Positions 1 to 56,259 of a DNA stretch of 56,259 nucleotides are shown here, piece after piece. The notes beneath the pieces were generated by a model. The model was not told the DNA's origin. It did no database searches and saw nothing but the letters and a program-made list of their open reading frames with translations. Position 1 is the stretch's first letter. Every line of letters starts with the position of its first letter. The stretch is from a virus. Position numbers and translations under genes: made by a program. Location: IMG/VR virus record IMGVR_UViG_3300043184_000094, positions 1-56,259 of that record. One strand, given 5' to 3'.

Positions 1-445
1 CGGGTACGACGTGCAGCGCGAGGGCAACCGGCTGCAATCGGACACGTCCCGCTACCTCGGCGACATCCAGAACGCGACGGCGCAGCGGGGCCAGGACTTC
101 TCCCTCCAGTCGGCGCTCGCCGGGTACGACGTGCAGCGCGAGGGCAACCGGCTGCAATCGGACACGTCCCGCTACCTCGGCGACATCCAGAACGCGACGG
201 CGCAGCGGGGCCAGGACTTCTCCCTCCAGTCGGCGCTCGCCGGGTACGACGTGCAGCGCGAGGGCAACCGGCTGCAATCGGACACGTCGCGGTACGTCGC
301 CGGCCTCGGCGACGCCACGACCCGCCGCGGGCAGGACTTCTCCCTCCAGTCGGCCAACCGCGGGTACGACGTGCAGGAGTCCGGCAACCGCCTCGCGGCG
401 GAAACCGCCCGCCGGGGCCAGGACACCGCCCTCCGGCAGACGATG
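1..445 (+). repeat. 120-bp in-frame tandem repeat array (window-start half)
   Basis: Units 1-120 and 121-240 are nucleotide-identical. Unit 241-360 diverges after about 50 nt. Unit 361-~445 is degenerate. Confidence 0.95.
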
Positions 446-13971: not shown

Positions 13972-14937
13972 CTAATCGGTGAGCGGGTTGAAGTAGGTCA
14001 GCCCCGGGGTCGGCACGAACCCGAGCTTCGGGTCGTAGCCCGGCCGCTCGTGGACCGGCGTGAACAGGTCGGACTGGGCCTCCCGGACCTTGGCGATGTG
14101 CTTCACCAGTTCGCCGACCTCGGGCCGGGTCCGCTCGCCCCGCGCCCACGGGCAGAGTTGCAGGAACTTGGCGGCGAACTTCCGAACGTCGGCGACCCCG
14201 TACCCGGCCGCCTTCAGGTCCGCCGCCGCCTTCCCGATCTGGCCCCCGTTCAGCTTCGGGTCCGCGCCGGTGACTTCCGCCACCGCGTCGAAAAGTTCGT
14301 TCCGCTCGCGCGGCGCGGGTTCCTTCCTCGCCGGCGGTTTTGGTTTCCGCTTCCGGGTCGCGGGTTGGTCGTTCTCGCTCGCGGGGTCCGGCTCGGCGGA
14401 CTCCGCAAGTATTCTCTTAGGACTAGGACTAGGACTAGGACTAGGAATAGGTAAGGAAGCGCTCTTATTCATCACTGACCCGTCACTGACCGATGACTGA
14501 TCGATATGTCGGCTAGTGGCTGGGTCATCACTGATCGATATGCCAAAATCGCCTATCGTCGGCGTAAAGTATTTGCCGGGATGCTCATCGGACGCGCCGT
14601 CCGAGACGCCTCGGAAGCGTTCCGGGACCGTTACGAAGTAGGTTGGCGGAACCCGCGAGGAACCCGGACGGAACACAAGCCAACCGGCCCGCGAGGCGGC
14701 TTTACGCATCCTCGACAGCCGGCAAAACGACGCAACCCCGAGAATCATCATCAACTGCGCGTTGTGAAAGTTCACCGGGCCGCGATACCCCTTGGCGTCC
14801 TCGGTGGCGGCTATGACGGATAGGAGGCCAATAACGTCCGCCCCGAGTTCGTTGCCTAGGGCCGTCTTTGCCATCAGCCTGATGAACTTGAGCGCGAAGA
14901 ACGGCGGGCGGGCGGGGTAATCGGCCGGCTTGGACAT
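13972..14937 (-). CDS. Replication initiator / replisome-organiser-like protein (position-based call)
   Basis: Lies immediately upstream of dnaB. Two-domain protein joined by a low-complexity linker (SPSPSPSP) that coincides with phased DNA repeats. ATG at 14937 (GAGGGG 8 nt upstream); track start is 14943. Confidence 0.6.
   Translation of the reverse strand: MSKPADYPARPPFFALKFIRLMAKTALGNELGADVIGLLSVIAATEDAKGYRGPVNFHNAQLMMILGVASFCRLSRMRKAASRAGWLVFRPGSSRVPPTYFVTVPERFRGVSDGASDEHPGKYFTPTIGDFGISISDDPATSRHIDQSSVSDGSVMNKSASLPIPSPSPSPSPKRILAESAEPDPASENDQPATRKRKPKPPARKEPAPRERNELFDAVAEVTGADPKLNGGQIGKAAADLKAAGYGVADVRKFAAKFLQLCPWARGERTRPEVGELVKHIAKVREAQSDLFTPVHERPGYDPKLGFVPTPGLTYFNPLTD
14418..14541. 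promoter_or_regulatory. Candidate origin of replication: hexamer array plus four 11-nt-phased iteron-like repeats inside the initiator-like gene
   Basis: (TAGGAC)x4 plus 2 variants at 14418-14453. TCACTGACC at 14472 and 14483, TGACTGATC at 14494, TCACTGATC at 14527 (spacings 11, 11, 33). ACTGATCGATATG occurs twice. Locally AT-richer. Confidence 0.5.
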
Positions 14938-15097
14938 GGGCAACGCCCCTCGGGGTGATGCCGATCATATCGGTTGTCGCGTTGCCGCCGAAGCAACAAA
15001 TCTCGGAGTCGAATTTGGTGCTGGAGTTGCCGGCCAGAGGTGGCGATGATCTGGGCGTGGCACTTCGCCACCGACGCAACGCCGTTCGCGCGTCGTA

Positions 15098-15129
15098 GGC
15101 GACCCCGGGATCGGTGCCCCGGGGTCGCC
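15098..15129 (-). terminator. Perfect 12-bp GC hairpin downstream of the Zn-ribbon gene (no U-tract)
   Basis: GGCGACCCCGGG-atcggtgc-CCCGGGGTCGCC. Confidence 0.3.
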
Positions 15130-15181
15130 GCACTTCTACGCCGTCGCTTCCGCCGGCCTGCGACCAGCCGCATCATCTAGC

Positions 15182-15213
15182 AGCGACTTCAAAGCGACTT
15201 CATAGCGACTTCA
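15182..15213. repeat. AGCGACTTCA x3 with 11-nt period, spanning the stop codon of 15200..15508
   Basis: Copies at 15182-15191, 15193-15202 and 15204-15213. Confidence 0.85.
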
Positions 15214-20361: not shown

Positions 20362-20377
20362 TTGGCGGATTCTTGCC
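20362..20377 (+). repeat. 16-mer TTGGCGGATTCTTGCC, copy 2 (convergent gap downstream of int)
   Basis: Direct repeat of 20088-20103. Possible integrase arm site or att-associated element. Confidence 0.6.
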
Positions 20378-21006
20378 TACCGGCCGTCCGGCCGCCACCG
20401 GCCGGCCTGCGGCGGGCAGGCTTCTGGCAAGGCGAACTCGATTGACGGCCAAGCCGCCCGTAAAAGTGCAAGCGTAAAGAATCGCTCAGCGTCTGCCGGC
20501 CGGAGCGAGTCTAGGTCGATGTCGCTCACCGACATCATGGCCGAGGTGCCGTCCAGCCGTAGCAGCGAGGTGCGGCGCGGGCCGTCCGGGCGGGCCGTCA
20601 CAAGCGGTCGCGTTCGCAGTCGCACCGCCTCGACCGGGTGCCGCCGGGTGATGTCGCCGGCGATCCCGACCCACCGCGGGCCGTCGCACTCGACCTCCGA
20701 GACGAAGCCGCGGTGGACGGTTAGCGACGCGCCAGGGTGCGGCACCTCGATGAGTATGCCGATGGCTGTCGGCGTCCACTGATCGGCCGACCGGCCGCCA
20801 CGCTGCATGATGGCGAGCGCGCCGCCGCCTTCCGGGAACTTGCGCCGCAGCCCGTCCTCGGCGAGACAGGCCATACGGATGTAGCTCGCCCGCGCCTCGC
20901 CGTCGGGGTCGCCCGTCTCGCCCAGGTAGTCGGCGAGGGCGAGCCGTGGCAGGTCGTCGAGCGGCGACGCCAGCACGGCCCTGAGTAGCGATTCGCGGTC
21001 GTTCAT
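20377..21006 (-). CDS. TIGR02996-like (Gemmata repeat-companion) N-terminal domain protein, 209 aa
   Basis: MNDRESLLRAVLASPLDDLPRLALADYLGETGDPDGEARASYIRMAC resembles the TIGR02996 consensus as I remember it. Track ORF trimmed to this ATG. Confidence 0.75.
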   Translation of the reverse strand: MNDRESLLRAVLASPLDDLPRLALADYLGETGDPDGEARASYIRMACLAEDGLRRKFPEGGGALAIMQRGGRSADQWTPTAIGILIEVPHPGASLTVHRGFVSEVECDGPRWVGIAGDITRRHPVEAVRLRTRPLVTARPDGPRRTSLLRLDGTSAMMSVSDIDLDSLRPADAERFFTLALLRAAWPSIEFALPEACPPQAGRWRPDGR

Positions 21007-21914
21007 GGCGGGCACCACGCCCCCGTCGGGGCAAATTCGGCCAGCAGTTCGTCGGGGACGTACTCTGGCCGGCGGTAGGAATGGCCGGCCTCGGCCATGT
21101 CCGTCAAGAACCAGCCGCGGTCGGTGGCGAGCAGGTCCACGGACCACGCGCCGTCCCCGGCGAACGCGATGGCCGCGTGCCTGGCCAGAGCGCAGCACTC
21201 CTCCGGGGGCGGGGCGTCCAGGCCGGCCACGAGATCGCGGAAGGCCGCACCCCCTCCCGGGAACGTGGCCGCCCTCGCGCGACCGTGCCCGTCCTTGCCA
21301 ACCACAACATCCTCCGGGTCGGCCTTCAGGTGCTCGGCGGCCTTGCGGATGCCAGCCGCCGCCCCGGCCGACCCGCCGGCGACCCACTCGTCAGCGCCAC
21401 CGCCAAGGGCCACGCCGGGGAGGCCGGCTAGAATCGCCCCCGGCGGCCAGTACGGCTGCCACCCCAGCACCCGGCCGCCGCCGACGAAGAGCCGGTATTC
21501 CTTCACCAGCGGCATGTCGCCGTAAGCGGTGAGCGTTGCCAGCGGCCGGACCGGCAGGTACTCCCGCACGGCGAACACGGCCACCGGCAGGCCGAACATG
21601 CTCGCCATCTCGCTGAACTCGATCAGGCCGAGCACTGGCCGCGCCACCGCGGCCCGGCCCGTCAGGAAGCAGCAGTCCTTCCAGCCGTGCTTCCCGCTGG
21701 TCTGCCCGGTCCGCAGGAAGGCGGGGCAGCCGATCCGGTCGGCGGCCCCGCCGATGGCATCGCACAGGGCGTCGGCCGCGGGGGACGTCTTGCCGTCGAG
21801 GATCGGCAGGACGGCCCGGTAGTCGGGCACCGGCACGAGTTCGGTCCGGGGCGACGGCAGGCCGGCCGCCTCGACCTTGGGGAGCCAGTAGGAGATGCAG
21901 TTGCGGTCGGTCAA
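21003..21914 (-). CDS. ATP-grasp-like enzyme (phage R2K-type, tentative), about 303 aa
   Basis: CISYWLPKVEAAGLPSPRT ... LVKEYRLFVGGGRVLG resembles phage ATP-grasp proteins. TTG start in a TTGA overlap with the upstream stop. Confidence 0.55.
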   Translation of the reverse strand: MTDRNCISYWLPKVEAAGLPSPRTELVPVPDYRAVLPILDGKTSPAADALCDAIGGAADRIGCPAFLRTGQTSGKHGWKDCCFLTGRAAVARPVLGLIEFSEMASMFGLPVAVFAVREYLPVRPLATLTAYGDMPLVKEYRLFVGGGRVLGWQPYWPPGAILAGLPGVALGGGADEWVAGGSAGAAAGIRKAAEHLKADPEDVVVGKDGHGRARAATFPGGGAAFRDLVAGLDAPPPEECCALARHAAIAFAGDGAWSVDLLATDRGWFLTDMAEAGHSYRRPEYVPDELLAEFAPTGAWCPP

Positions 21915-22225
21915 CCTGCACCATCCTTCGGTATGGCGACGCCTGCCGCCGGTCGGCGGCAGGCCTCGCTGAGCCCGCGGGAGGACACGGCGGCGGCGGG
22001 CGGCCCGTAGCCGGCCAGCGGCCCGTAGCCGGCCAGCGGCCCGCACTCGGCCTCGTCCCACGCCAGCTCGGCGTCGGCCCTGGCGCGGGCGACCGCCTCC
22101 TCGTCGGTGAGCGGGTTGCGGCCGGAGACGGTGAACATTTCGCAGGACATCACCCAGCGGCCGGCGAAGGCGTGCTCGTACCGCAGCGCCACGCCGTACA
22201 CGGTGACTGGCAGGAGCATGGTCAT
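21911..22225 (-). CDS. Hypothetical protein, 104 aa, with GPLAGY x2 repeat
   Basis: Protein-like part of track ORF 21911..22450, starting at MTMLLPV. Confidence 0.6.
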   Translation of the reverse strand: MTMLLPVTVYGVALRYEHAFAGRWVMSCEMFTVSGRNPLTDEEAVARARADAELAWDEAECGPLAGYGPLAGYGPPAAAVSSRGLSEACRRPAAGVAIPKDGAG

Positions 22226-22569
22226 TCGGCTTCCCCGTGGAGCCGCATCGCCTCGGCGAGCTCGGCCACGAGCCGCTTGGCCTCGGCCGCCCTCCGCTCG
22301 GCCGCTTCGAGTTCGGCCCTGGCGTTGTCCAGTGCCGAGGCGGCCACCCGCCGCTGGAGTTCCGCCAGGGTGTCGGGCGGCTCGGTAATGTCGGCTGGCA
22401 GTTCGGCGTACCGGAACGGGATGCCCAGCACGCGGATCAGCGTGTGGCACCCGGGCCGGTCGCCCCAGTGGAGAAGCCGGCCGGACCCGTCGTAGACGGC
22501 GAGCGCGTCGTCAAGGGCGGCTTGGCCGAACAGGTGCAGTGCGGTCAGGTCGGGCTTGGGGGCGGTCAC
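22222..22569 (-). CDS. Hypothetical protein with C-terminal coiled coil, 115 aa
   Basis: GTG start in a GTGA overlap. GGGAGGAGG upstream. Protein-like tail of track ORF 22222..23106. Confidence 0.6.
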   Translation of the reverse strand: MTAPKPDLTALHLFGQAALDDALAVYDGSGRLLHWGDRPGCHTLIRVLGIPFRYAELPADITEPPDTLAELQRRVAASALDNARAELEAAERRAAEAKRLVAELAEAMRLHGEAE

Positions 22570-22895
22570 GGCCTCCTCCCGGCGGCGGCCTCGAACTTGA
22601 TCCGGGCGTACCGGAGCAGCCGCTGCTGGTGGCCGGCCGCCAGCGTCCCGACGGGCCGGCCCCGGTCCGCGACCAGCCGCTCGGCTAGGCCGAACAGGTC
22701 GCGGGCGACGGTCGCCAGCAGGCCGCACCTGGCGAGCAACGCGGCCTCGGGGCCGGACAGGCCCAGATCGCTGGCGGCCACCGCGTCGGACACCGCCTGC
22801 CAGTCGCTCGGCTGCATCGCCACCGTCAGGCCCGGGGCCGGGTGGAGCAGCCGCCGGAGGTCGGCCAGCCTCATCATGTCGTGCTCCGTCGTCAT
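22566..22895 (-). CDS. Hypothetical protein, 109 aa
   Basis: Track ORF, protein-like. Confidence 0.65.
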   Translation of the reverse strand: MTTEHDMMRLADLRRLLHPAPGLTVAMQPSDWQAVSDAVAASDLGLSGPEAALLARCGLLATVARDLFGLAERLVADRGRPVGTLAAGHQQRLLRYARIKFEAAAGRRP

Positions 22896-22901
22896 GTCCC
22901 G

Positions 22902-23201
22902 TCACTCCGCCTGTAGGGCAAGGATGGCGTCCCGGTTCCGTTCGGCGAACCGGGCAAGGGCCTGGTACACGTTCGACTTGCTGCACCCGATCTCGGCCGC
23001 CGCGCTGCCGCGGCTCAGGCCGACGGCGAGGCACAGGTACAGGCACCGCCGCTCCAGCGGGGTGGCGTCGGCGAACAGCGACCCCCACTGCCCGGCCGTC
23101 CAGCACGCCGCGGCGTCGTTCCGGCCGAACGCCCGCCGCAGCAGCAGGCCACCGGTCAGCTGGTCCACGCAGATGTCGTGGCCGTCACGTCGTCGCGCCA
23201 C
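22902..23201 (-). CDS. Small sigma-70 region-4 / LuxR-like HTH protein
   Basis: TPLERRCLYLCLAVGLSRGSAAAEIGCSKSNVYQALARF. Confidence 0.55.
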   Translation of the reverse strand: MARRRDGHDICVDQLTGGLLLRRAFGRNDAAACWTAGQWGSLFADATPLERRCLYLCLAVGLSRGSAAAEIGCSKSNVYQALARFAERNRDAILALQAE

Positions 23202-24081
23202 GGGCGGCCTCCACGTCGGCGATGCGGCGGGCGGTCAGTTCCACCTGCGACTGGCGGATGTCGCGTCCGACGAACCGCCGGCCGTGGGTCAGGGCAGCGT
23301 GTGCGGTGGTCCCCGACCCGGCGAAGCAGCCCAGGACGATGCCGCCGGGCGGGGCGTACCACCGGACCAGCCGCGCGGCGACCTCCAGGTTCATCGGCGC
23401 TTCGTTCTCGTGGGCGAGCGGGTGGCCCAACTGCCCGCCGCCGTTGCCGGCGCGGATCACGTTCCCCGGGTTCGCCACCTCCGGCGCGCGATACGGCCTG
23501 TTCCGCCCCTTCGTCCCCTCGCGGAACTTGACCCGAACGCCGTCCGCGCCGCGGTGGCTCGGGCCGCCGCCGGGCGGACACCTCGGCGGCAAGCCGCCGG
23601 CGGTGTTGTCGCTCCAGAACGGGGGCAGGTGGCCCCGCTTGGCGAATGCGTACGCCGGCTCCCAATTGCGGCGGTGGCAGCGCGGGCCGCCGCTCCCCAT
23701 GATCCCGGGCCGGACCCACGCATACGGGGCCGGGCCGCACTCGATGCCGTCGATCCTGGTCAGGTCGGCGACCAGCCACTCCACGGCCGGCGAGTACCGG
23801 CTGTTGCTGACCGGGCCGCTGACGTTCACGCACACCAACCTGGCCGTGACGCGGCACGCCTCGACGACGATCGGCCGCAACCAGTCCACCCACGCTTGGC
23901 CCCGGAGCCTGTGGTTGATGCCGTAGGTCCGGCTCGCTTGGTACGGGGGCGAGAACACGGCCAGGGCCGCAAGCCCGTCCGGCAGGCCCCGAAGGAACGC
24001 CAGGGCGTCGGCGCAGTCCACGCCCCACGCCGAGCGGCCGGCGAGCACGTCGCGGGACGACGGGATGGCGGGTGGGGTCAT
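23185..24081 (-). CDS. DNA amino-methyltransferase (N4-C/N6-A, beta class), 298 aa
   Basis: Motif IV VFSPPYQ precedes motif I LGCFAGSGTT. Track ORF trimmed to MTPPAIP. Confidence 0.9.
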   Translation of the reverse strand: MTPPAIPSSRDVLAGRSAWGVDCADALAFLRGLPDGLAALAVFSPPYQASRTYGINHRLRGQAWVDWLRPIVVEACRVTARLVCVNVSGPVSNSRYSPAVEWLVADLTRIDGIECGPAPYAWVRPGIMGSGGPRCHRRNWEPAYAFAKRGHLPPFWSDNTAGGLPPRCPPGGGPSHRGADGVRVKFREGTKGRNRPYRAPEVANPGNVIRAGNGGGQLGHPLAHENEAPMNLEVAARLVRWYAPPGGIVLGCFAGSGTTAHAALTHGRRFVGRDIRQSQVELTARRIADVEAARGATT

Positions 24082-24419
24082 TTCCGCCCCCGCTTCCGCG
24101 CCAGCCCCGGACGGCCGACGACCTTGTTCGGGACGCCCTCGGGGCGGCACGCCTTCCTGGGGGCCTCGCCGCCCAGCCCGGCCAGCCCGGCCAGCTTCAT
24201 GCACCTGGCGAGGTCGGTCAGCCGGTAGTGCCACTCGCCGCAGCGGACGTGGACCTGCTCGGCCAGCCCCTTGTCCGCCAGCCGCTCGACGTGCCGCGAG
24301 GCGTCCCACAGCGACAGGCCGAGGTCGGCGGGGCCGAACCGCTGCGGGTCCAACTCCAGCAGGATGCGGCGGAGGGTCCGGCCGAGGTCGTCGTTCGTCG
24401 TGCGGGGACGGGCCATCAT
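24078..24419 (-). CDS. Winged-helix (MarR-like) DNA-binding protein, about 113 aa
   Basis: RTLRRILLELDPQRFGPADLGLSLWDASRHVERLADKGLAEQV. ATGA overlaps at both ends. Confidence 0.55.
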   Translation of the reverse strand: MMARPRTTNDDLGRTLRRILLELDPQRFGPADLGLSLWDASRHVERLADKGLAEQVHVRCGEWHYRLTDLARCMKLAGLAGLGGEAPRKACRPEGVPNKVVGRPGLARKRGRK

Positions 24420-25112
24420 GCGGCCTCCAGCTTGGCAAGTAGCCGATCCCGCCACGCGACCGCCCAGTCCATGCAGTTGGCGCAGGACTTGTGGCGGTGG
24501 CCGGGTAGCGGCGGGCGGCGGCGGGCGTTGAAGCTCCAGGCCATGCTGTCGGAACTGGCGAGGCGGCGGCCGTACCTTGCCAGCCCGGTCGTCTTCATGC
24601 CGAACCCGTGGATTCGGATGCCGCGGTCAGCCAACGCGGCGACAATCCCCGCAGCCTCGGCCGTCCCCTGCCGCCGACACGCCGACCCGAGGCCGACGAC
24701 CGGCAGACTGGTCAGGTCGAGCCTCGCGTAGCGCAGGTACAGGTCGGCGTGCAGCAGGTAGTCGCCGAGTTCCCAGCCCTGAAGCACCGGCACCCACGGC
24801 ACGTCGGGGGCGATCCCGTTCAGCTCGCACCAAGAGTTGATGGTGAACATCTGGTGCTCCAGGAGCGAGTGCCCGGTCTTGGCGAGTACGAACGGCCCGC
24901 ACATCCAGTCCTGGATCGCGGCCCACTCCATGCCGCCGATTTCGCCCCGCCACCGCCGGGCCTCGGCAGCGTACTGCTTCGGCGTCGTCTCCCACCGCCC
25001 GGACCGGTTCAGCTCCGCGAAGCCGCCGGAGCAACCGCCGGGCGCTGACGAATAGCGGGACCGTCGTCCTCGGGAGCCACGCCGGCTCGTGGGTGCCGAG
25101 CCAGAACGTCAT
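24416..25112 (-). pseudogene. dpdA: DpdA-like (TGT-fold) DNA/queuine transglycosylase with an interrupted reading frame
   Basis: The N-terminus MTFWLGTHEPAWLPRTTVPLFVSARR is in one frame (ATG 25112). SGGFAELNRSGRWETTPKQY...VLQGW...VVGLGSACRR...HGFGMKTTGL...SSDSMAWS...HKSCANC is in the +1 frame (track ORF 24416..24931 plus its upstream extension). The switch is at about 25023-25045. Confidence 0.6.
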
Positions 25113-25630
25113 TGCGGCGACCCGCCCTTCGCCCTCGCCGCCCTCGCTTCCGCGCGGCACAGGTCGTCGCATCGGACGTTGAACTTGCTCACCGACATCC
25201 CGTCCGCCCGGATGCCGGCCGCGAGCTCCTTCCGGTTCGGGTGGCCGCCGAGCAGGTAGTAACGGACCGGGCCGAGCGTTGCCTGGAGCCGCCGCACCCG
25301 CTCGACTAGGGCGGGCGGCACCCCGGCCATCTTCGAGCGGGCCGACCTGAACCGGCAGAGCGTCACGTTCGAGTCGGAGTAGGCGGCCCCGTCCCATCCC
25401 GGCGGCACGGCCTCCAGGGCGAGCGTCAGGGCCAGCAGTTCGGTGGCGTTGTTCGACACCGCGGCCAAGCCGAGGTCGGCCGGTGCGACAAAGCCGCTCG
25501 CCTCGGCCACCGCCGACTCCTCCCGGCCGTAGCCACGCCCGTCGGTGTGGACCCACGCCCACGTCCCGCCGAGGGCCGACGGGTTGCGGCCGACCACGCC
25601 GCCGTCCGAGTACACGGCCGCCGGGCTCAT
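25109..25630 (-). CDS. RNase H-like (RNase HI fold) protein
   Basis: VYSDGG ... SNNATELLAL ... AYSDSN matches the D-E-D spacing of RNase HI. Confidence 0.7.
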   Translation of the reverse strand: MSPAAVYSDGGVVGRNPSALGGTWAWVHTDGRGYGREESAVAEASGFVAPADLGLAAVSNNATELLALTLALEAVPPGWDGAAYSDSNVTLCRFRSARSKMAGVPPALVERVRRLQATLGPVRYYLLGGHPNRKELAAGIRADGMSVSKFNVRCDDLCRAEARAARAKGGSPQ

Positions 25631-26227
25631 GCCAGCACCCCCTCGGCAAACACGACCTTGGTCCGCAGCCGCGACCAGATGTCATCGAGGAGCGTCCCGA
25701 CCGCCGTCTCGGCTTGGCCGTACCGCGCGTTCCAGGGTCGCGCGATCTTGATGAACTCGCCCCCCATCGCACCCCACCGGCGGCAGTTAACGTCGCCGTC
25801 GTCGAGCAAAAACTTGTCCTTGCCGGCCAGCTCCCAGTTGGCGGGCGACAGGTGCAGCCTGCGGGCATATTTCGGCAGGCTGTACCTCACCCACGAAGCC
25901 TTGCCGGCGACGCACCAGTGGTCGTCGCACGGCGACGTGATGAGGTGGACGTTCTCCTCGCCGAACGCCGCCTCGACCGCCGCCAGGATTCGCCTGCCGT
26001 CCGGCGTCCACGGCAGGGACGACCAGAAGACATAGCCCTGCTTGTTGATCGGCTTCCAGAACGCCGCCTCGTCGATGCCGAGCAACTCCCAGGCGTTCCG
26101 CACGCCCTTCGCCTCCGGCGGGGCGTACACCTCGTCCACGTCCCGCCCGTGCAGCCGCAGGGCCGCCCCGAGGAAGTCGCACAGCACGCCGTCCAGGCCC
26201 AGAAACGCCGTCTTCACGCCGCCCTCC
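25627..26227 (-). CDS. HAD-superfamily phosphatase, 5'(3')-deoxyribonucleotidase-like
   Basis: VKTAFLGLDGVLCDF (DxDxV-type motif I). GTG with GGAGGG 4 nt upstream. Track ORF 25627..26517 trimmed. Confidence 0.6.
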
Positions 26228-26271
26228 GTGGGTAGTGGCCGCCACGGACGGCGGCCCAGGGTTACACGCCG

Positions 26272-27208
26272 CAAGCGCCGTAGCACTCGTTGACCGACAT
26301 CGAGTCGAGCTTGGGCGGCTCCGCCCGCGACAGGCCCACCAGTGGCAGGGGGACGAGCGAGCGGTGCAGGTACATCTCGTCCCGCATCCCGCGATTGACC
26401 GCGTTGCCGGGCACCCGTAGGGCGGCATCGATTTCGACGGCCCGCTCCCAGTCCGGCCCGCCAGCCGCCTTCAGCAGCGACCACTCCCAGTCGTCCTTGA
26501 GCGGGCAGTAGACGCACGCCGTGCCGCGGTCGGCGTGCGTCTACTGCCCGCCAGGAAGGCGTGGCAGTCGCGGCGACTCCACCCCAATTCCGGCAGCGGG
26601 AACCCGGGCCTGAACCGGCCGCCTGACGACCTCCTGCGGACCGACGCCTTGCCCCGTGGCCTCGGCACCGTCACCGTGTACGGTCCGAGCCGCACGTCCG
26701 CACCCGGGGTCGCCCCGAAGCGGAGCAGGATGTTGCCCGCCCGCCGCAGTTCGTCGGCAGAGATGCCGAAGTGCTGCGTCACGGTGACGCCCTTCGGCAC
26801 CCGCTGCCCCGGCTTGAGGCCGAGCAACTGCCGGCGGATGGCCCGCTCCACCACCTCGATCTTGTACTCGGCGGCGCATTGCCGCCTCACCCGGCCGCCC
26901 TTGCGCCCGCCGGCCGTCCGCTTGACGAACGCCGGGATGCCGGCGAACCGCCGGGACGGGCCGACTCCGGCCACCAAGTCGTGCCCGAGCCGGCCGCGGG
27001 TGGCGACGACCGCGGGCGGGCCGCCGCACCCCTTGAGCCATTCCAGGTGGCGATACACTGCCGCTGGCTCGTCCTGCGTGTCGCCCATCACCGAGCAGTC
27101 GATGGCGAACGGGAGCCGGCCGGCCCTCGCAAGCAGGTGGACGGCGGTCGATTGCACGCCGGCCCCAAGGTTCAGTACGTTCAGGTGCGGCACGGCCTTC
27201 CCCCTCAT
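26272..27208 (-). pseudogene. PAPS-reductase-like PP-loop ATPase (phage type) with a -1 frame break before the C-terminal CxxC motif
   Basis: HLNVLNLGAGVQSTAVHLLA ... RRQCAAEYKIEVV ... SRRDCHAFLAG is in the track frame (26471..27742). The conserved tail TACVYCPLKDDWEWSLLKAAGGPDWERAVEIDAALR...YLHRSLVPL continues in the -1 frame to a TAA at 26272. Confidence 0.7.
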
Positions 27209-31492: not shown

Positions 31493-33008
31493 TGCGTGAC
31501 TCCGTTGGTGTGCGACAGGGCGACTGTCGCGGTTGCAACGGGTATAGCGGCGGTCGTGCCAACCGGTCAACGCCGACCGCGATTCGCACGAGGCCCCGTG
31601 TTTTCCCGGCAATTGGAGAGATTGTGAGGTGTCGCCGGTGTGCCTTTGTGCGCTACCGCCGGGTTAACGCCCGTTGCCAGAGGTTAGCGCCGCGTTGCCG
31701 GGGGTTTGCACTCGGCGGCCGATGCCCCCCTCCCCCTTCTGGGGGGGGATGGTCGGCCAGGTGCCAGCCAGCTCCGCCCGCCAATCGTCACCGTTGCCGT
31801 GACGTATCTCCCGGCAATCCCGACCCGGGTCGTCGAGCATCCGCCCCGTGCCTACCTGGCCCTGACCCCTGCCAGCCAAGCAGGCGGCAGAGGGGATGCG
31901 GGGAGGGGAGACACTGCGTCATTCTGTCGTTGGCTATTGCTACTTAGCGCTGCCTAACTGGCTGGTTATGCGCGGCGAAGCAAGATTCCGGACAAGATTT
32001 CATAACCGGTGTTAGTGCAAGGTGTTGAGACGGTGGCGATTGTGCCGATTATCCGGCCAGATGTGGGATCAGCCGCCGCCGGCCGCCTGCAGAGGCCCGG
32101 GGGTAGGCCCCAGCCGCCCCCGCACCGTGTATTACCTTCCCCCCCGACAGTTTTTTCGCCGTATAACCCGGCCCTTTGGGGTCTCCGGCGGCCCCGATGG
32201 GTGTGGCGGTTGACCGCCGGGCGGTGGCCGCGAACCCGCCCACCCTTCGAGGCGGTTTTCGGATCGGGTCTTCGGTTCTGGGGTCGAGGGGTTAGCGCGC
32301 GACCGGGCCGCCGCTTTGGGCGGCCCGGCGACCGCCGCCTTGGGCGGTCGAGTGACCAAGGAAGGGGCGAAAGGCAGTGCTTTTACCGGGGGCAGGCGCA
32401 CCGACCCCGCGAAAACGCACCGCGGAGGGGCCGCGGAACGTCAAACAGGGTCGGTGCGAGTCGCACCGGGCGGTCACTGACGGTCCCGCCTTCCCCAGCG
32501 CCTGCGTGCGAGGGCTCTCACGCCTTTGCCCCCCGGCCGTTCGTCGTCACCACTCCGGGGCGCTCCGCAGGATACCCGGCCACTTCTTCGGTCCCGGGCG
32601 GGTTCGTCCCGGTATCCGCCACCAGCTCGCCCGCAGGCCGTGGGGTGGCGCACGTCTGCCAATCAGGGGCTGTCCGCAAGTCGGGCTCGCTTGGCGAGCC
32701 GCCGTCCGGCTGGTTTCCCGGATATCCTCCCCGGGCCGGTCTGCGACGGGATCGCCGTCAACAGCTGTTCTCGCACAAAGCCCCCGACCGCCATTAGCGA
32801 CTTCGTAAATAATCCCCTGGTCGGCCCGCCGCCAGGCCGGGCAGCCGCCAAAACCGGTAGAATTTACCGATCCTGACGATTCTGTCGCTCTGCTTAGTTG
32901 TTCCGGTGGCGCATTGTCGCCTTTGCGTCTCGTAACGCCGCCGCCGGCCGGCCAGAATAGCCTCGTCGCACACCGGCCCGACCCCCGCGAGCCGCAGGCC
33001 CGAGCCCC
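31493..33008. other. About 1.5-kb ORF-free, repeat- and hairpin-rich region between the divergent early and late blocks
   Basis: No frame shows protein-like composition or the GC3 bias typical of this genome. Contains direct repeats, homopolymer tracts and nested stems (see findings). Confidence 0.6.
31541..31570 (-). promoter_or_regulatory. Candidate early promoter TTGACC-N18-TATACC
   Basis: Plus-strand ggtcaa at 31565-31570 and ggtata at 31541-31546. About 45 nt of leader with the GCGACAG/CTGTCGC hairpin before the SD of 30812..31492. Confidence 0.35.
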
Positions 33009-34013
33009 ATGAACGAGACAGCCGGCGACCAGCCAGTCACCGCCGAGCCGGCCGCCCCGGCCCCGGCCGCCGCCGGCGTCCCGGCCGCCCCGGCCCCGGC
33101 CGCCGCCGGCGTCCCGGCCGCCCCGCCGCCGGGGCCGGCGATGCCCGCCGCCGGGGCGGGGGCGTCCGACCCCTACGCCGACCTCCGCCGCGAGCGGGAC
33201 GAGTACCGCCGGCAAGTGGAGCAGTACCGGCCGCTCGCCGAGATGGGCTACCGCTCGTACCAGGCCGAGCAGCAGGCCGCCCGCCAGAGGCAGATGGAGC
33301 GGGAGCAGGCCGAGCGGTCCAGGCCGTGGGTGGACCTGCCGAAGTTCGAGCGGCAGCTGATGCAGTTCGTCGCCCGCGACCCGAGCACCGGCGAGCTCGT
33401 CGCCAAGCCCGGCGCGCCGCCGGACCTCCTGGCCCGCTACCAGGAGTTCCAGCAGCGGTACGAGGAGACGGCCTGGAACCTGGTGACGGCCCCCGAGAAG
33501 GTGCTGGCCGACCCGATCCGCCAGCTCGTCGCCGCCGAGGCCGCCGGGATCGTCCGCGAGCAGATGGCCGAGTACCAGCGGCAGCAGCAGGTGCAGGGCA
33601 TCCTCCGCGACAACTCGTCGTGGCTGTTCGCCCCGGACCCGGGGCCGGCCGGCCGCCCGGTGCTCAGCGAGGCCGGCCGCCTGTTCCACCTGCACGTCCA
33701 GGAGGCGGCGGCGATGGGCATCGCCGACGACGCCCGGCAGGCCGCCTACGCCCGCCGCCAGTTGGAGGCCGACCTGATCCGGCTCCTGCACCAGCGGGCC
33801 GGGGCCGCGCCGACCGCCGCCGCGGCCTCGGCCGCCCAGAAGGACGGGTTCCTGAACGCCGCCGGGGCCAACCGCCCGGCCGCCGCCCCGCCGAGCGCAC
33901 CGCCCGCCGCCGGGCTGTCGCCCGGGGCCGGCGGGGACCGGGCGGTGGCGGCCACCATGATGGCCCGGCTGCGGGCGGCCGGGATCAGCGACGACCACGT
34001 TTTCACCGGCTGA
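33009..34013 (+). CDS. Scaffolding-protein candidate (Gln/Arg/Glu-rich helical), 334 aa
   Basis: Lies immediately upstream of the capsid-like gene. Coiled-coil-like composition. 33-nt tandem duplication (PAAPAPAAAGV x2) at about 33049-33114. Confidence 0.6.
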   Translation: MNETAGDQPVTAEPAAPAPAAAGVPAAPAPAAAGVPAAPPPGPAMPAAGAGASDPYADLRRERDEYRRQVEQYRPLAEMGYRSYQAEQQAARQRQMEREQAERSRPWVDLPKFERQLMQFVARDPSTGELVAKPGAPPDLLARYQEFQQRYEETAWNLVTAPEKVLADPIRQLVAAEAAGIVREQMAEYQRQQQVQGILRDNSSWLFAPDPGPAGRPVLSEAGRLFHLHVQEAAAMGIADDARQAAYARRQLEADLIRLLHQRAGAAPTAAAASAAQKDGFLNAAGANRPAAAPPSAPPAAGLSPGAGGDRAVAATMMARLRAAGISDDHVFTG

Positions 34014-55677: not shown

Positions 55678-56259
55678 ATGAGCCGGCTGGGCGGATTCCC
55701 GGTGGTCGGCGGGTTCGGCGGGGGCACGACCGGCGGCCCCGGCCGGGGCCTGGAGATCTTTTCCGTCTACGGCGTGGACCCGAACGAGAACTACCAGCGG
55801 CAGCAGCAGGCGAGGCTCCAGCGGCAGCTCCAGCAGGACCAGCTCCGGTCCGAGGACGCCAGGGCGAGGCTCGGGGCCGACACCCAGCGGTACGCCATCG
55901 ACCGGCAGGGGGACACGGCCCGGTACGCCACCGACGCCGACCGGTACGCCGCCGGGCTGAACGCCGAGACGACCCGCCGCGGGCAGGACTTCTCCCTCCA
56001 GTCGGCCAACCGCGGGTACGACGTGCAGCGCGAGGGCAACCGGCTGCAATCGGACACGTCCCGCTACCTCGGCGACATCCAGAACGCGACGGCGCAGCGG
56101 GGCCAGGACTTCTCCCTCCAGTCGGCGCTCGCCGGGTACGACGTGCAGCGCGAGGGCAACCGGCTGCAATCGGACACGTCCCGCTACCTCGGCGACATCC
56201 AGAACGCGACGGCGCAGCGGGGCCAGGACTTCTCCCTCCAGTCGGCGCTCGCCGGGTAC
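55678..56259 (+). CDS. N-terminal part of the wrap-around 40-aa-repeat virion-block protein (continues at nt 2)
   Basis: ATG at 55678 with AAGGGGG upstream. My translation: MSRLGGFPVVGGFGGG...QRQQQARLQRQLQQDQL...RGQDFSLQSANRGYDVQREGNRLQ. No stop before the window end, so it is absent from the track. Confidence 0.8.
   Translation, partial: MSRLGGFPVVGGFGGGTTGGPGRGLEIFSVYGVDPNENYQRQQQARLQRQLQQDQLRSEDARARLGADTQRYAIDRQGDTARYATDADRYAAGLNAETTRRGQDFSLQSANRGYDVQREGNRLQSDTSRYLGDIQNATAQRGQDFSLQSALAGYDVQREGNRLQSDTSRYLGDIQNATAQRGQDFSLQSALAGY
55893..56259 (+). repeat. 120-bp tandem repeat array (window-end half)
   Basis: One degenerate unit at about 55893-56012, then identical units at 56013-56132 and 56133-56252, plus 7 nt. 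Confidence 0.95.

What the first reader, a model, noticed from the sequence alone, without database searches (positions are those of the whole stretch)
21003..27208. Early-operon nucleic-acid-modification island: DpdA-like transglycosylase with no recognisable preQ0 pathway, embedded among PP-loop, HAD, RNase H-like, SPPY-methylase, wHTH and ATP-grasp genes
One 4-nt-overlap-coupled minus-strand operon contains the following genes. There is a PAPS-reductase-like PP-loop protein (26272..27208), a HAD deoxyribonucleotidase-like phosphatase (25627..26227), and an RNase H-like protein (25109..25630). There is a TGT-fold DpdA-like protein (24416..25112), a winged-helix protein, and a beta-class SPPY amino-methyltransferase (23185..24081). 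There is also a sigma-r4-like HTH, three unknowns, and an ATP-grasp-like enzyme (21003..21914). Known phage DpdA systems insert 7-deazaguanines and normally travel with FolE/QueD/QueE/QueC. I could not recognise any of those four genes anywhere in this genome. So either the phage uses host preQ0/precursors, or this DpdA-like enzyme works with different partners. The PP-loop ATPase, phosphatase and ATP-grasp ligase are the kinds of chemistry used to build or decorate a base. That combination is not a described pathway to my knowledge. Caveat: two of the key ORFs are frame-broken in this assembly.
Basis: partly seen in the sequence, partly recalled or inferred. Interest (0 to 1): 0.75.

Follow-up and report, generated by a model that had tools for sequence, protein, structure and literature searches.

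The report
Broken DpdA gene in phage accessory genes
This stretch of a planctomycete-type phage genome is an ordinary patchwork of independently mobile DNA-modification and nucleotide-metabolism genes, and its headline gene, the DpdA base-swapping enzyme, is an inactivated pseudogene rather than the core of a new DNA-modification pathway.

Summary
The genes are real and mostly as annotated. These are confirmed:
- DpdA (Pfam PF23859, E 3.6e-71)
- a beta-class SPPY methyltransferase
- an R2K ATP-grasp
- an RNase HI-like protein
- the absence of any FolE/QueC/QueD/QueE

The novel-pathway reading fails for four reasons.

1. dpdA has a 47-nt deletion. It removes the invariant Asp of the DSGGF motif, the essential general acid/base, and shifts the frame.
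2. Two neighbouring genes are also damaged. The PAPS-reductase-like gene is broken by a perfect 21-nt inverted repeat that brings a frameshift and a TAG. The HAD protein has Gly in place of its nucleophile Asp. An independent Logan assembly carries identical sequence.
3. The gene set is not co-conserved.
   - Of 80 IMG/VR DpdA loci, 3 hold the PAPS-like gene, 6 the methyltransferase and 0 any other island gene.
   - Of 160 PAPS-like loci, 0 hold DpdA.
   - Related phages carry the PAPS-like gene between RecT and DnaB, with no DpdA on the stretches recovered.
4. A DpdA without preQ0 genes is the commonest published arrangement (76 phages, Hutinet 2019). In this clade the only recurrent partner is a YhhQ/Vut_1 preQ0-type transporter (26 of 86 loci), which points to precursor salvage.

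Verdict: an ordinary accessory-gene mosaic under relaxed selection. Low interest.

The parts
26262..27208 (-). PAPS-reductase/DndC/SspD-like PP-loop gene, disrupted (pseudogene in this assembly). The N-terminal 245 codons are in one frame (26471..27208) and the C-terminal part is in another (26262..~26537).
   Evidence: - phrog_424, E 2.6e-16; no Pfam hit.
- The frame switch is visible in the GC3 plot and in the three-frame translation.
- Colinear with intact 280-316 aa homologues except at the 'VPHxVPRS' codons.
- hhalign to Pfam-verified PAPS_reduct proteins: probability 54%, with LGAGVQST aligned to SGGKDST.
- PADLOC SspD, E 3e-8.
- AF2 model of the 59%-identical homologue P0122: pLDDT 88.9. 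Best Foldseek hits are TtuA and other PP-loop ATPases, E 5.6e-3.
26501..26551 (.). Perfect 21-nt inverted repeat with a 9-nt loop, inside the PP-loop gene exactly at the frame break. One arm encodes the conserved ACVYCP motif. The other arm replaces the codons that homologues use for VPHxVPRS. It brings a -1 frameshift and an in-frame TAG.
   Evidence: the repeat finder. Among the 25 longest inverted repeats listed for the window it is the longest perfect one. Position relative to homologues comes from alignment A4 and the sequence. That it arose by a template-switch (quasi-palindrome) mutation is inference.
25627..26217 (-). HAD-superfamily protein resembling NT5C 5'(3')-deoxyribonucleotidase, with the motif-I nucleophile Asp replaced by Gly (codon 7 is GGC, at 26197..26199).
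   Evidence: - Pfam NT5C, 24.4 bits against a cutoff of 24.8.
- phrog_2643 and phrog_420.
- 3408 relatives with E <= 0.001 in the representative library.
- Alignment A7: 23 of 23 homologues read D-x-D-G; the window reads G-L-D-G.
- Codon checked.
25109..25630 (-). RNase HI-like protein, apparently intact.
   Evidence: phrog_531, E 8e-4. Homologues carry PF00075 and JGI names them ribonuclease HI. D9, E64, D86 and D155 are invariant and present in the window protein.
24416..25112 (-). dpdA pseudogene. The TGT-fold DNA guanine transglycosylase gene has a 47-nt internal deletion (junction between 25032 and 25031). The deletion removes about 16 codons, including the Asp of DSGGF, and shifts the frame.
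   Evidence: - Pfam PF23859, 239.9 bits.
- Protein alignment A1: the 'LPRAxxxWALD' segment is missing and column 57 Asp is present in 12 of 12 homologues.
- Nucleotide alignment with 5 homologues shows a 47-column gap.
- Gene length is 697 nt, not a multiple of 3.
- Asp95 of the S. Montevideo DpdA is the general acid/base and D95A abolishes activity (PMC10164549).
- The same sequence appears in the Logan assembly of SRR13020431.
24078..24419 (-). 113-aa protein of unknown function. Its predicted H-H-H-beta-beta topology is compatible with a winged helix, but this is unconfirmed.
   Evidence: No Pfam, NCBIfam, PHROG or PADLOC hit. Single-sequence AF2 model, pLDDT 67. No significant Foldseek match.
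23185..24081 (-). Orphan beta-class (SPPY) N4-cytosine/N6-adenine DNA methyltransferase, apparently intact.
   Evidence: PF01555, E 1e-16. phrog_67, E 1.6e-25. PADLOC MTase_II, E 2.2e-18. Motif order is read from the sequence.
22902..23201 (-). Small HTH protein (weak sigma-70 region 4 / HTH_23 similarity).
   Evidence: Pfam E 4.5e-4 to 3.4e-3, all below the gathering scores.
21911..22895 (-). Three small ORFs of unknown function (22566..22895, 22222..22569, 21911..22225).
   Evidence: Coding signal. No family hits apart from a sub-threshold DUF7620 match. No homologues near DpdA or the PAPS-like gene in other loci.
21003..21914 (-). R2K-clade ATP-grasp protein with a ~70-aa low-complexity insertion (about 21204..21416) not found in homologues.
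   Evidence: PF14243 R2K_3, 31.5 bits against a cutoff of 26.3. Alignment with 4 IMG/VR homologues. The frame signal is ambiguous in the insertion. The clade is predicted to be protein-modifying peptide ligases (PMC4431377).
20377..21018 (-). TIGR02996 (Gemmata 'repeat-companion') domain protein next to the integrase. It is a host-lineage marker and not part of any modification chemistry.
   Evidence: NCBIfam TIGR02996, 48.6 bits against a cutoff of 29.05.

Best explanation
The region is the accessory part of a leftward early operon. The genome is a ~56-kb temperate tailed phage that assembles as a circle, and its host is probably a Gemmataceae-type planctomycete. The region is a mosaic of individually mobile genes, not one pathway. 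It holds:
- an orphan beta-class DNA methyltransferase, which would self-methylate phage DNA against restriction
- an RNase HI-like nuclease
- an R2K ATP-grasp, a predicted protein-modifying ligase
- small DNA-binding proteins and unknowns
- three enzymes that are inactivated here

The three inactivated enzymes are these.
1. dpdA. In intact relatives it exchanges guanine in DNA for a 7-deazaguanine base, most likely preQ0 that the host makes or a YhhQ-type transporter imports. Here it has lost 47 nt, including the catalytic general acid/base Asp, and is frameshifted.
2. The DndC/SspD-like PP-loop gene. It is interrupted by a templated inverted-repeat mutation that adds a frameshift and a stop.
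3. The NT5C-like HAD gene. It has lost its nucleophile Asp.

Shown: the gene identities, the lesions, the lack of co-conservation and the lack of preQ0 genes.

Inferred: the segment is under relaxed selection, or under selection for loss. dpdA loss is a documented escape route from defences that target deazaguanine. The DNA of this phage is therefore probably not deazaguanine-modified.
For: Lesions in the window:
- dpdA: Pfam 239.9 bits. It has a 47-nt deletion relative to 5 homologues. The segment containing the invariant Asp of DSGGF is absent, while 12 of 12 homologues keep it. That residue (Asp95) is essential in the S. Montevideo DpdA.
- PP-loop gene: a frame break with TAG at a perfect 21-nt inverted repeat.
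- HAD: nucleophile Asp to Gly, against 23 of 23 homologues.
- The Logan assembly of SRR13020431 is 100% identical over 13,990 nt, including both breaks.
- A genome-wide scan finds no other frame-broken gene on the coding strands.

Lack of co-conservation:
- 80 IMG/VR DpdA loci with +/-10 kb: PAPS-like 3, methyltransferase 6, HAD/RNase H/wHTH/R2K/unknowns 0.
- 160 PAPS-like loci (2.3 Mb): 0 DpdA by HMM.
- The closest PAPS-like homologues (59% and 56% identity) sit in RecT-DnaB-DUF1064 operons of related phages, and no DpdA is found on the recovered stretches.
- The four R2K loci lack DpdA.

What this DpdA clade does travel with:
- The only recurrent DpdA neighbour is Vut_1/YhhQ, directly upstream on the same strand in 26 of 86 loci.
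- L090 has QueC-QueE-QueD-DpdA.

Literature:
- DpdA-only phages are the largest published group.
- A dpdA loss-of-function mutant escapes a glycosylase that targets deazaguanine (bioRxiv 10.1101/2025.10.29.685425).
Against: - Both assemblies probably derive from the same reads. A minor intact allele, or a systematic error at the GC-rich hairpin, cannot be excluded without read mapping.
- All three lesions fall within four adjacent genes. This could also mean that these genes once worked together and decayed together.
- tblastn-level co-occurrence tests miss very divergent analogues. A different PAPS_reduct subfamily does lie next to or near DpdA in a few genomes: L087, L088 and Streptomyces phage Gilgamesh.
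- The host, and whether it can make preQ0, were not determined.
Confidence: 0.75

Rival explanations
1. DpdA inserts a non-preQ0 base that is built or decorated by the PP-loop ATPase, the HAD phosphatase and the ATP-grasp ligase. The present copy is either functional or a recently decayed relic of that module.
For: - The genes are translationally coupled in one operon.
- The three lesions cluster within four adjacent genes, which would fit co-decay of a unit.
- PAPS_reduct-family genes of another subfamily lie beside or near DpdA in L087, L088 and phage Gilgamesh.
- What DpdA-only mycobacteriophages insert is an open question. Orion DNA was unmodified.
Against: - No co-conservation from the DpdA side. 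Among the 80 IMG/VR loci, the window-type PAPS-like gene is in 3 and HAD and R2K in 0.
- None from the PAPS-like side: 0 of 160.
- Relatives carry the PAPS-like gene without DpdA on the recovered stretches.
- The PAPS_reduct proteins next to DpdA elsewhere have no detectable similarity to the window's protein.
- R2K enzymes are predicted to be protein ligases.
- The clade's real recurrent partner is a preQ0-type transporter.
- dpdA lacks its catalytic Asp here.
Confidence: 0.04
2. The genes are intact in the real phage. The breaks are assembly or sequencing artefacts, or belong to a minor variant. The phage is then a working DpdA-only phage that modifies its DNA with host-derived preQ0.
For: - It is metagenome-derived sequence with 73% GC.
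- One break sits at a strong hairpin, which is a known trouble spot.
- Both assemblies may share one read set.
- Intact relatives of the clade are linked to preQ0 supply genes.
Against: - A clean 47-nt deletion flanked by only short CCGGCGG microhomology is not a typical short-read or de Bruijn graph error.
- Two different assemblers give identical sequence.
- No other gene in the 56 kb is frame-broken.
- The HAD Asp-to-Gly change is a plain substitution in the same segment.
Confidence: 0.12
3. The whole element is a defective or cryptic prophage in general decay, and the island is just the visible part of that.
For: An integrase is present. There are three lesions in accessory genes.
Against: - The contig closes on itself through a 127-nt terminal repeat.
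- The long structural, terminase, portal, DnaB, RecT and YqaJ genes are intact.
- No other frame breaks were found.
Confidence: 0.08

Closest known systems
'DpdA-only' phages (third group of Hutinet et al. 2019, 76 phages, e.g. [quoted passage not shown] By sequence, the nearest deposited phages are Weiservirinae mycobacteriophages such as Ekdilam gp37 (48% identity).
   Same: A PF23859/TGT-fold DpdA is encoded in a phage with no FolE/QueD/QueE/QueC. The gene sits among unrelated early or accessory genes.
   Different: - The gene here is inactivated (47-nt deletion, catalytic Asp lost).
- The host lineage is planctomycete-like rather than Actinobacteria or Proteobacteria.
- Published DpdA-only phages showed no modification (Orion) or 0.02% dADG (7-11).
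Canonical phage preQ0 DNA-modification clusters (FolE/QueD/QueE/QueC + DpdA, e.g. Escherichia phage CAjan and Mycobacterium phage Rosebush), plus the metagenomic locus L090 (QueC-QueE-QueD-DpdA).
   Same: The L090 DpdA is about 54-57% identical to the window's DpdA, so the clade includes members physically linked to preQ0 synthesis.
   Different: The window has none of the biosynthesis genes and no YhhQ/Vut_1 transporter. Rosebush gp2 DpdA belongs to a different lineage: no tblastn hit at E <= 1 in the window or at E <= 1e-4 in the 86 DpdA loci.
DndC / SspD PP-loop ATP pyrophosphatases of DNA phosphorothioation systems, and phage 'PAPS reductase' phrog_424.
   Same: The PP-loop-like N-terminal motif, the RRQC..YK and SACVxCP cysteine motifs and the C-terminal ECxGxCG align with them. 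The fold search returns PP-loop and Fe-S sulfurtransferases.
   Different: - It does not reach Pfam PF01507.
- The motif is GAGVQS rather than SGGxDS.
- It stands alone, with no recurrent conserved partner. Its neighbours vary: ArdC-like, C5-methyltransferase, ParB-methyltransferase, helicase.
- It is disrupted in this window.
dpdA loss-of-function escape mutants (phage HK243 DpdA G217E escaping the Dag1 glycosylase).
   Same: A phage that has lost DpdA activity. Loss is selectable when the host targets deazaguanine-modified DNA.
   Different: That case is a laboratory point mutant in a phage that has the full preQ0 pathway. Here the change is a natural deletion allele, and the selective cause is only inferred.

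Membership tests
DpdA (PF23859; TGT-fold DNA guanine transglycosylase) | Profile match above the curated threshold | tested here: met
   239.9 bits against a cutoff of 27, E 3.6e-71, on the frame-corrected translation. Also phrog_1279, E 3.2e-72.
DpdA (PF23859; TGT-fold DNA guanine transglycosylase) | General acid/base Asp of the DSGGF motif (Asp95 in S. Montevideo DpdA; D95A is inactive) | tested here: not met
   The segment 'LPRAxxxWALD' is deleted. 12 of 12 homologues keep the Asp, and neither reading frame supplies one (Cys or Leu precede SGGF).
DpdA (PF23859; TGT-fold DNA guanine transglycosylase) | Nucleophile Asp (Asp256 equivalent, S-x-D-S-x-A-W) and base-recognition Asp (QDWM) | tested here: met
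   D189 (SSDSMAW) and D69 (QDWM) are invariant columns and are present. Their mapping to Asp256 and Asp130 is by motif, which is inference.
DpdA (PF23859; TGT-fold DNA guanine transglycosylase) | Uninterrupted reading frame | tested here: not met
   697 nt. There is a 47-nt gap against 5 homologues, and the frame changes at 25031/25032.
Phage 7-deazaguanine DNA-modification system | A source of the base: FolE/QueD/QueE/QueC, or a YhhQ/Vut_1 transporter | tested here: not met
   No tblastn hit better than E 0.38 with the L090 and Rosebush enzymes. Pfam scans of the called genes and the two reconstructed broken genes at E <= 0.01 gave no such family. The Vut_1 HMM and tblastn gave nothing significant. 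Host capacity was not tested.
Phage 7-deazaguanine DNA-modification system | 7-deazaguanine nucleosides in virion DNA | not testable with these tools
   Needs LC-MS/MS of virion DNA.
PP-loop ATP pyrophosphatase (PAPS reductase / DndC / SspD-like) | Match to the family profile (PF01507) | tested here: not met
   No Pfam family at E <= 0.01. The precomputed Pfam field is '-' for all 120 listed homologues.
PP-loop ATP pyrophosphatase (PAPS reductase / DndC / SspD-like) | Remote homology and fold of the PP-loop alpha/beta domain with its Cys motifs | tested here: inconclusive
   - phrog_424, E 2.6e-16.
- PADLOC SspD, E 3e-8, over 36 residues.
- hhalign probability 54%, E 1.3e-4, with the motifs in register.
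- Foldseek best hit TtuA: probability 0.99 but E 5.6e-3 and TM 0.32-0.36.
- PDB profile search: no hit.
Together these favour membership in the superfamily, but none is decisive.
HAD phosphatase, NT5C 5'(3')-deoxyribonucleotidase type | Profile match above the curated threshold | tested here: inconclusive
   24.4 bits against a cutoff of 24.8. phrog_2643, E 4.9e-7.
HAD phosphatase, NT5C 5'(3')-deoxyribonucleotidase type | Motif I DxD, whose first Asp is the phosphoryl-accepting nucleophile | tested here: not met
   The window reads G-L-D-G (codon 7 is GGC). 23 of 23 homologues read D-x-D-G.
RNase HI | DEDD catalytic tetrad | tested here: met
   D9, E64, D86 and D155 are invariant in alignment A8 and present in the window protein. 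Several homologues carry PF00075.
Beta-class N4/N6 DNA methyltransferase | PF01555 match, with motif IV (S/D)PP(Y/F) N-terminal to motif I FxGxG | tested here: met
   E 1e-16, 62 bits against a cutoff of 26.7. SPPY lies near residue 44-47 and FAGSGTT near residue 253.
R2K-clade ATP-grasp | Profile match above the curated threshold | tested here: met
   PF14243, 31.5 bits against a cutoff of 26.3. The C-terminal WSVDLL..GWFLTDMAEA block is conserved with homologues.
Conserved multi-gene pathway (functional gene cluster) | Co-occurrence of the component genes across related and unrelated genomes | tested here: not met
   - 80 IMG/VR DpdA loci: PAPS-like 3, methyltransferase 6, all others 0.
- 160 PAPS-like loci: DpdA 0.
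- The related phages L095 and L096 carry the PAPS-like gene, but no other island gene is found on the recovered stretches.

The most novel reading that the evidence does not exclude
The clustered lesions mark the co-decay of a once-functional unit. In that unit, a DpdA of this 'DpdA-only' clade inserted a base other than preQ0. The precursor would have been activated or trimmed by the DndC/SspD-like PP-loop enzyme and the NT5C-like phosphatase. Intact versions would then exist in unsampled planctomycete phages. A weaker form of this reading concerns the stand-alone LGAGVQST PP-loop/Cys-rich family. It has more than 1,400 homologues, no Pfam coverage, and is common in phages and conjugative elements beside methyltransferases, ParB and ArdC. 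It could be an uncharacterised DNA-modification or anti-restriction enzyme.
Probability: 0.04. Interest if true: 0.6.

Novelty: new member of a known kind. Interest (0 to 1): 0.15.

Why it matters
It matters little for DNA-modification biology. The locus adds a planctomycete-type phage to the already large class of phages that carry DpdA without a preQ0 pathway, and the gene here is dead.

Three modest points are useful.
1. It is a natural example of dpdA loss, which fits recent evidence that hosts can target deazaguanine-modified DNA.
2. In this DpdA clade the conserved partner is a YhhQ-type transporter. That supports precursor salvage as the general answer for DpdA-only phages.
3. The stand-alone PP-loop family is widespread, unstudied and not covered by Pfam.

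Tried and rejected
- Single-protein scans of IMG/VR with the PAPS-like protein found nothing. With the R2K protein they found only 4 loci, none with DpdA.
- A profile search of PDB sequences with the PAPS-like alignment gave no hit.
- Single-sequence PDB searches with the HAD and RNase H proteins gave only noise.
- The single-sequence AF2 model of the putative winged-helix protein was of low confidence, and Foldseek returned nothing meaningful.
- NCBIfam added only TIGR02996 and weak methyltransferase hits.
- tRNA and Rfam scans of the window were empty, so no attP or tRNA clue to the host emerged.
- A literature search for queuosine or preQ0 capacity in Planctomycetes gave nothing usable, so host preQ0 synthesis stays untested.
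- I considered that PAPS-reductase genes are genuine DpdA partners, because L087, L088 and phage Gilgamesh have one nearby. I rejected this for the present case: those proteins are a different subfamily with no similarity to the window's protein, and 0 of 160 loci of the window's subfamily have DpdA.
- I considered programmed frameshifting for dpdA. I rejected it because the missing 47 nt encode invariant residues that no frame supplies.

Full report
**What the window is.** The sequence is 56,259 bases at about 73% GC.
- Its two ends share an exact 127-nt repeat that lies inside a 120-nt tandem array within one gene. The contig therefore closes into a circle and is most likely a complete phage genome.
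- A codon-model gene call gives 74 genes. Pfam finds an integrase, YqaJ and RecT recombination proteins, a DnaB helicase, DUF1064, an HTH_17 protein and a large terminase.
- There are no tRNAs and no Rfam matches.
- The gene at 20377..21018 carries the TIGR02996 domain, first described in Gemmata (48.6 bits against a cutoff of 29.05).
- Named homologues of the PP-loop and RNase H genes come largely from planctomycete assemblies such as Gemmata, Fimbriiglobus, Gemmataceae and Planctomycetaceae. The PP-loop family also occurs in other phyla. A Gemmataceae-type planctomycete host is likely, but this is inferred.

**Checking the observation.** A GC3 frame plot shows uninterrupted minus-strand coding from about 28064 down to 20377. 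Eight gene junctions are ATGA, GTGA or TTGA overlaps, so the "4-nt-coupled operon" is real. The family assignments hold up to different degrees.

| Gene | Coordinates | Evidence | Status |
|---|---|---|---|
| DpdA | 24416..25112 | Pfam PF23859, 239.9 bits against cutoff 27; phrog_1279 | unambiguous |
| Methyltransferase | 23185..24081 | PF01555, E 1e-16; SPPY N-terminal to FxGxG | confirmed, beta-class |
| ATP-grasp | 21003..21914 | PF14243 R2K_3, 31.5 bits against cutoff 26.3 | confirmed |
| RNase H-like | 25109..25630 | homologues carry PF00075; all four DEDD residues kept | confirmed |
| PP-loop | 26262..27208 | no PF01507 hit; phrog_424 E 2.6e-16; PADLOC SspD E 3e-8; hhalign probability 54% with motifs in register; Foldseek top hits TtuA and other PP-loop ATPases at weak E-values | probable, not proven |
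| HAD | 25627..26217 | NT5C 24.4 bits, just under cutoff 24.8 | borderline |
| Winged helix; sigma-r4-like HTH | 24078..24419; 22902..23201 | weak or only topological support | unconfirmed |

The Foldseek result for the PP-loop gene comes from an AF2 model of the 59%-identical intact homologue P0122 (pLDDT 88.9). The PP-loop assignment is best described as a DndC/SspD-like member of the superfamily.

**Absence of a preQ0 pathway.** This is confirmed.
- I used QueC, QueE and QueD from the metagenomic relative L090, and QueC, QueD, QueE and FolE from phage Rosebush.
- tblastn over all six frames of the window finds nothing better than E 0.38.
- Pfam scans at E <= 0.01 returned no QueC, PTPS, radical-SAM or GTP-cyclohydrolase family. 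They covered the called genes, with the two broken genes scanned as reconstructions.
- There is no YhhQ/Vut_1 transporter either.

**The key genes are damaged.** The damage is more serious than that.
- *dpdA.*
  - Alignment with 12 intact homologues (252-287 aa) shows that the window copy lacks the segment "..LPRAxxxWALD" just before SGGF.
  - Nucleotide alignment with five homologues shows a clean 47-nt gap, which is not a multiple of three. The junction lies between 25032 and 25031.
  - The lost Asp belongs to the DSGGF motif. It corresponds to Asp95 of the Salmonella Montevideo DpdA, which is the general acid/base, and its alanine mutant is inactive (PMC10164549).
  - No reading frame supplies a replacement.
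- *The PP-loop gene.*
  - It is colinear with its homologues except at the codons for "VPHxVPRS".
  - There the window carries one arm of a perfect 21-nt inverted repeat (26501-26521 and 26531-26551). The other arm encodes the conserved ACVYCP motif.
  - The change costs one base of frame and introduces TAG.
  - This looks like a templated (quasi-palindrome) mutation, which is inference.
  - Among the 25 longest inverted repeats listed for the window, it is the longest perfect one.
- *The HAD protein.* It reads G-L-D-G where 23 of 23 homologues read D-x-D-G. Codon 7 is GGC, one base from GAC, so the phosphoryl-accepting nucleophile is gone.

A Logan assembly of run SRR13020431 is 100% identical over 13,990 nt, including both breaks. 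A genome-wide scan for coding signal upstream of the first possible start codon flags only these two genes on the coding strands. The lesions are therefore specific to this segment and are not a sign of a poor assembly.

**Is the gene set a module?** I tested this from both sides.
- *From DpdA.* I collected 80 IMG/VR loci holding the closest DpdA relatives (43-55% identity) with up to 10 kb on each side. At E <= 1e-4 they contain the window-type PP-loop gene in 3, the methyltransferase in 6, and the HAD, RNase H, winged-helix, HTH, three unknown and R2K genes in 0.
- *From the PP-loop gene.* I collected 80 loci from GTDB genomes and 80 from IMG/VR, 2.3 Mb in all. None holds a DpdA by HMM search. 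Neighbours of this family vary: ArdC-like proteins, helicases, C5-methyltransferases, RuvC-like proteins and ParB-methyltransferase fusions.
- *In related phages.* The two closest PP-loop homologues (59% and 56% identity) lie in phages that share RecT, DnaB, DUF1064 and a 1064-aa tail protein with this window. There the gene sits in the recombination and replication module. No DpdA or other island gene is found on the 12.9-kb and 9-kb stretches recovered.
- *From the R2K gene.* The four R2K loci lack DpdA.
- *A possible exception.* A different PAPS_reduct subfamily does occur beside or near DpdA in L087, L088 and Streptomyces phage Gilgamesh. Those proteins show no similarity to the window's protein.

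**What DpdA of this clade does travel with.**
- I clustered all ORFs within 5 kb of DpdA in 86 loci, without prior assumptions. This gave one recurrent real neighbour: a ~170-190 aa membrane protein directly upstream on the same strand in 26 loci.
- All four representatives that I tested exceed the Pfam gathering score for Vut_1 (PF02592). That is the family of YhhQ, the preQ0 transporter.
- Two loci (L090, L027) carry QueC and QueE. QueD was detected in L090 by Pfam and in L027 by tblastn.
- The clade is thus tied to preQ0 supply by salvage or synthesis, and to no other chemistry.
- Rosebush's own DpdA (gp2) gives no tblastn hit at E <= 1 in the window, and none at E <= 1e-4 in the 86 DpdA loci, so it belongs to another lineage.

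**Comparison with what is known.**
- Hutinet et al. 2019 grouped 76 phages that encode DpdA and no preQ0 or G+ synthesis genes. It was the largest of their groups. They suggested reliance on host preQ0 or on uptake (PMC6884629).
- Of the two such phages they analysed, Orion had no deazaguanine and 7-11 had 0.02% dADG.
- By sequence, the nearest deposited phages are Weiservirinae mycobacteriophages, where DpdA is also a singleton among unrelated genes.
- The R2K clade is predicted to ligate peptides onto proteins in phage-host conflicts, not to act on bases (PMC4431377).
- A laboratory dpdA loss-of-function mutant escapes a glycosylase defence that targets deazaguanine DNA (bioRxiv 10.1101/2025.10.29.685425). 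This gives a plausible selective reason for a natural null allele, but that link is inference.

**Conclusion.** The interesting interpretation is not supported. The region is a mosaic of independently mobile early accessory genes. Its dpdA is a pseudogene of the well-known DpdA-only type, and two neighbouring enzymes are also inactivated.

One residual argument favours a former functional link: the lesions cluster. That rests on three events and an uneven search, because I inspected catalytic residues only in the island genes. The co-occurrence data outweigh it.

Three things remain untested: read-level allele frequencies, the host's identity and its preQ0 capacity, and the chemistry of the virion DNA.

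Noticed in passing
window 26501-26551: A perfect 21-nt inverted repeat with a 9-nt loop sits inside a coding sequence. One arm is the conserved ACVYCP codons. The other arm overwrites the upstream codons of the same gene. This looks like a textbook templated (quasi-palindrome) mutation. Among the 25 longest inverted repeats listed for the window, it is the longest perfect one.
   Followed up: partly
window 26197-26199 (codon 7 of the HAD gene 25627..26217): The HAD motif-I nucleophile Asp is Gly (GGC). All 23 aligned homologues keep Asp. This is a third inactivating change within four adjacent genes.
   Followed up: yes
loci L008-L078 (26 of 86 DpdA loci), e.g. L011:9471-9998, L048:823-1335, L060:9501-9992: A Vut_1/YhhQ-family membrane protein lies directly upstream of DpdA on the same strand in about 30% of loci of this 'DpdA-only' clade. 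Only 2 of 86 loci have QueC/QueE. The 2019 survey reported no correlation between YhhQ and any phage group, so this clade-specific linkage may be worth a systematic look.
   Followed up: partly
window about 21204-21416 (inside the R2K gene 21003..21914): A ~70-aa Gly/Ala-rich insertion is absent from all four homologues. It coincides with a stretch where the GC3 frame signal is ambiguous between two frames. It could be an insertion or a compensated double frameshift.
   Followed up: no
window 1-376 and 55984-56259: The contig ends fall in a 120-nt tandem array (40-aa repeats, 'GYDVQREGNRLQSDTSRYLGDIQNATAQRGQDFSLQSALA') within one gene that spans the circle junction. The exact terminal repeat is 127 nt. 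The true copy number of the repeat is uncertain.
   Followed up: partly
PAPS-like family: P0122-P0240, loci L095-L258: The stand-alone LGAGVQST...RRQC..YK...SACVFCP...ECxGMCG family has 1408 homologues at E <= 1e-5 and at least 550 loci each in GTDB genomes and IMG/VR. No precomputed Pfam domain is recorded for the listed homologues. It occurs in Planctomycetota, Verrucomicrobiota, Acidobacteriota, Alphaproteobacteria and Paenibacillus, often beside ArdC-like proteins, C5-methyltransferases, ParB-methyltransferase fusions or helicases. Its function is unknown.
   Followed up: partly
L259 (Mycobacterium phage Rosebush 789-1946) against the window 24416..25112: Rosebush gp2 is the experimentally linked dPreQ0 DpdA, and it follows a ParB-like gene. 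It gives no tblastn hit at E <= 1 in the window or at E <= 1e-4 in the 86 DpdA loci. Yet 399 other mycobacteriophage records match this clade at under 60% identity (46-48% in the 30 listed). Mycobacteriophages therefore carry two distinct DpdA lineages.
   Followed up: no
window 20377-21018: A TIGR02996 (Gemmata repeat-companion) domain protein is encoded immediately next to the integrase, in a moron-like position. It is the best host clue in the window.
   Followed up: partly
window 14284-15199 and 31493-33008: Two stretches of 0.9 and 1.5 kb have no confidently called gene. The second separates the leftward early operon from the rightward late genes and may hold the regulatory region. It contains short GC-rich tandem repeats at 33048-33132.
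   Followed up: no
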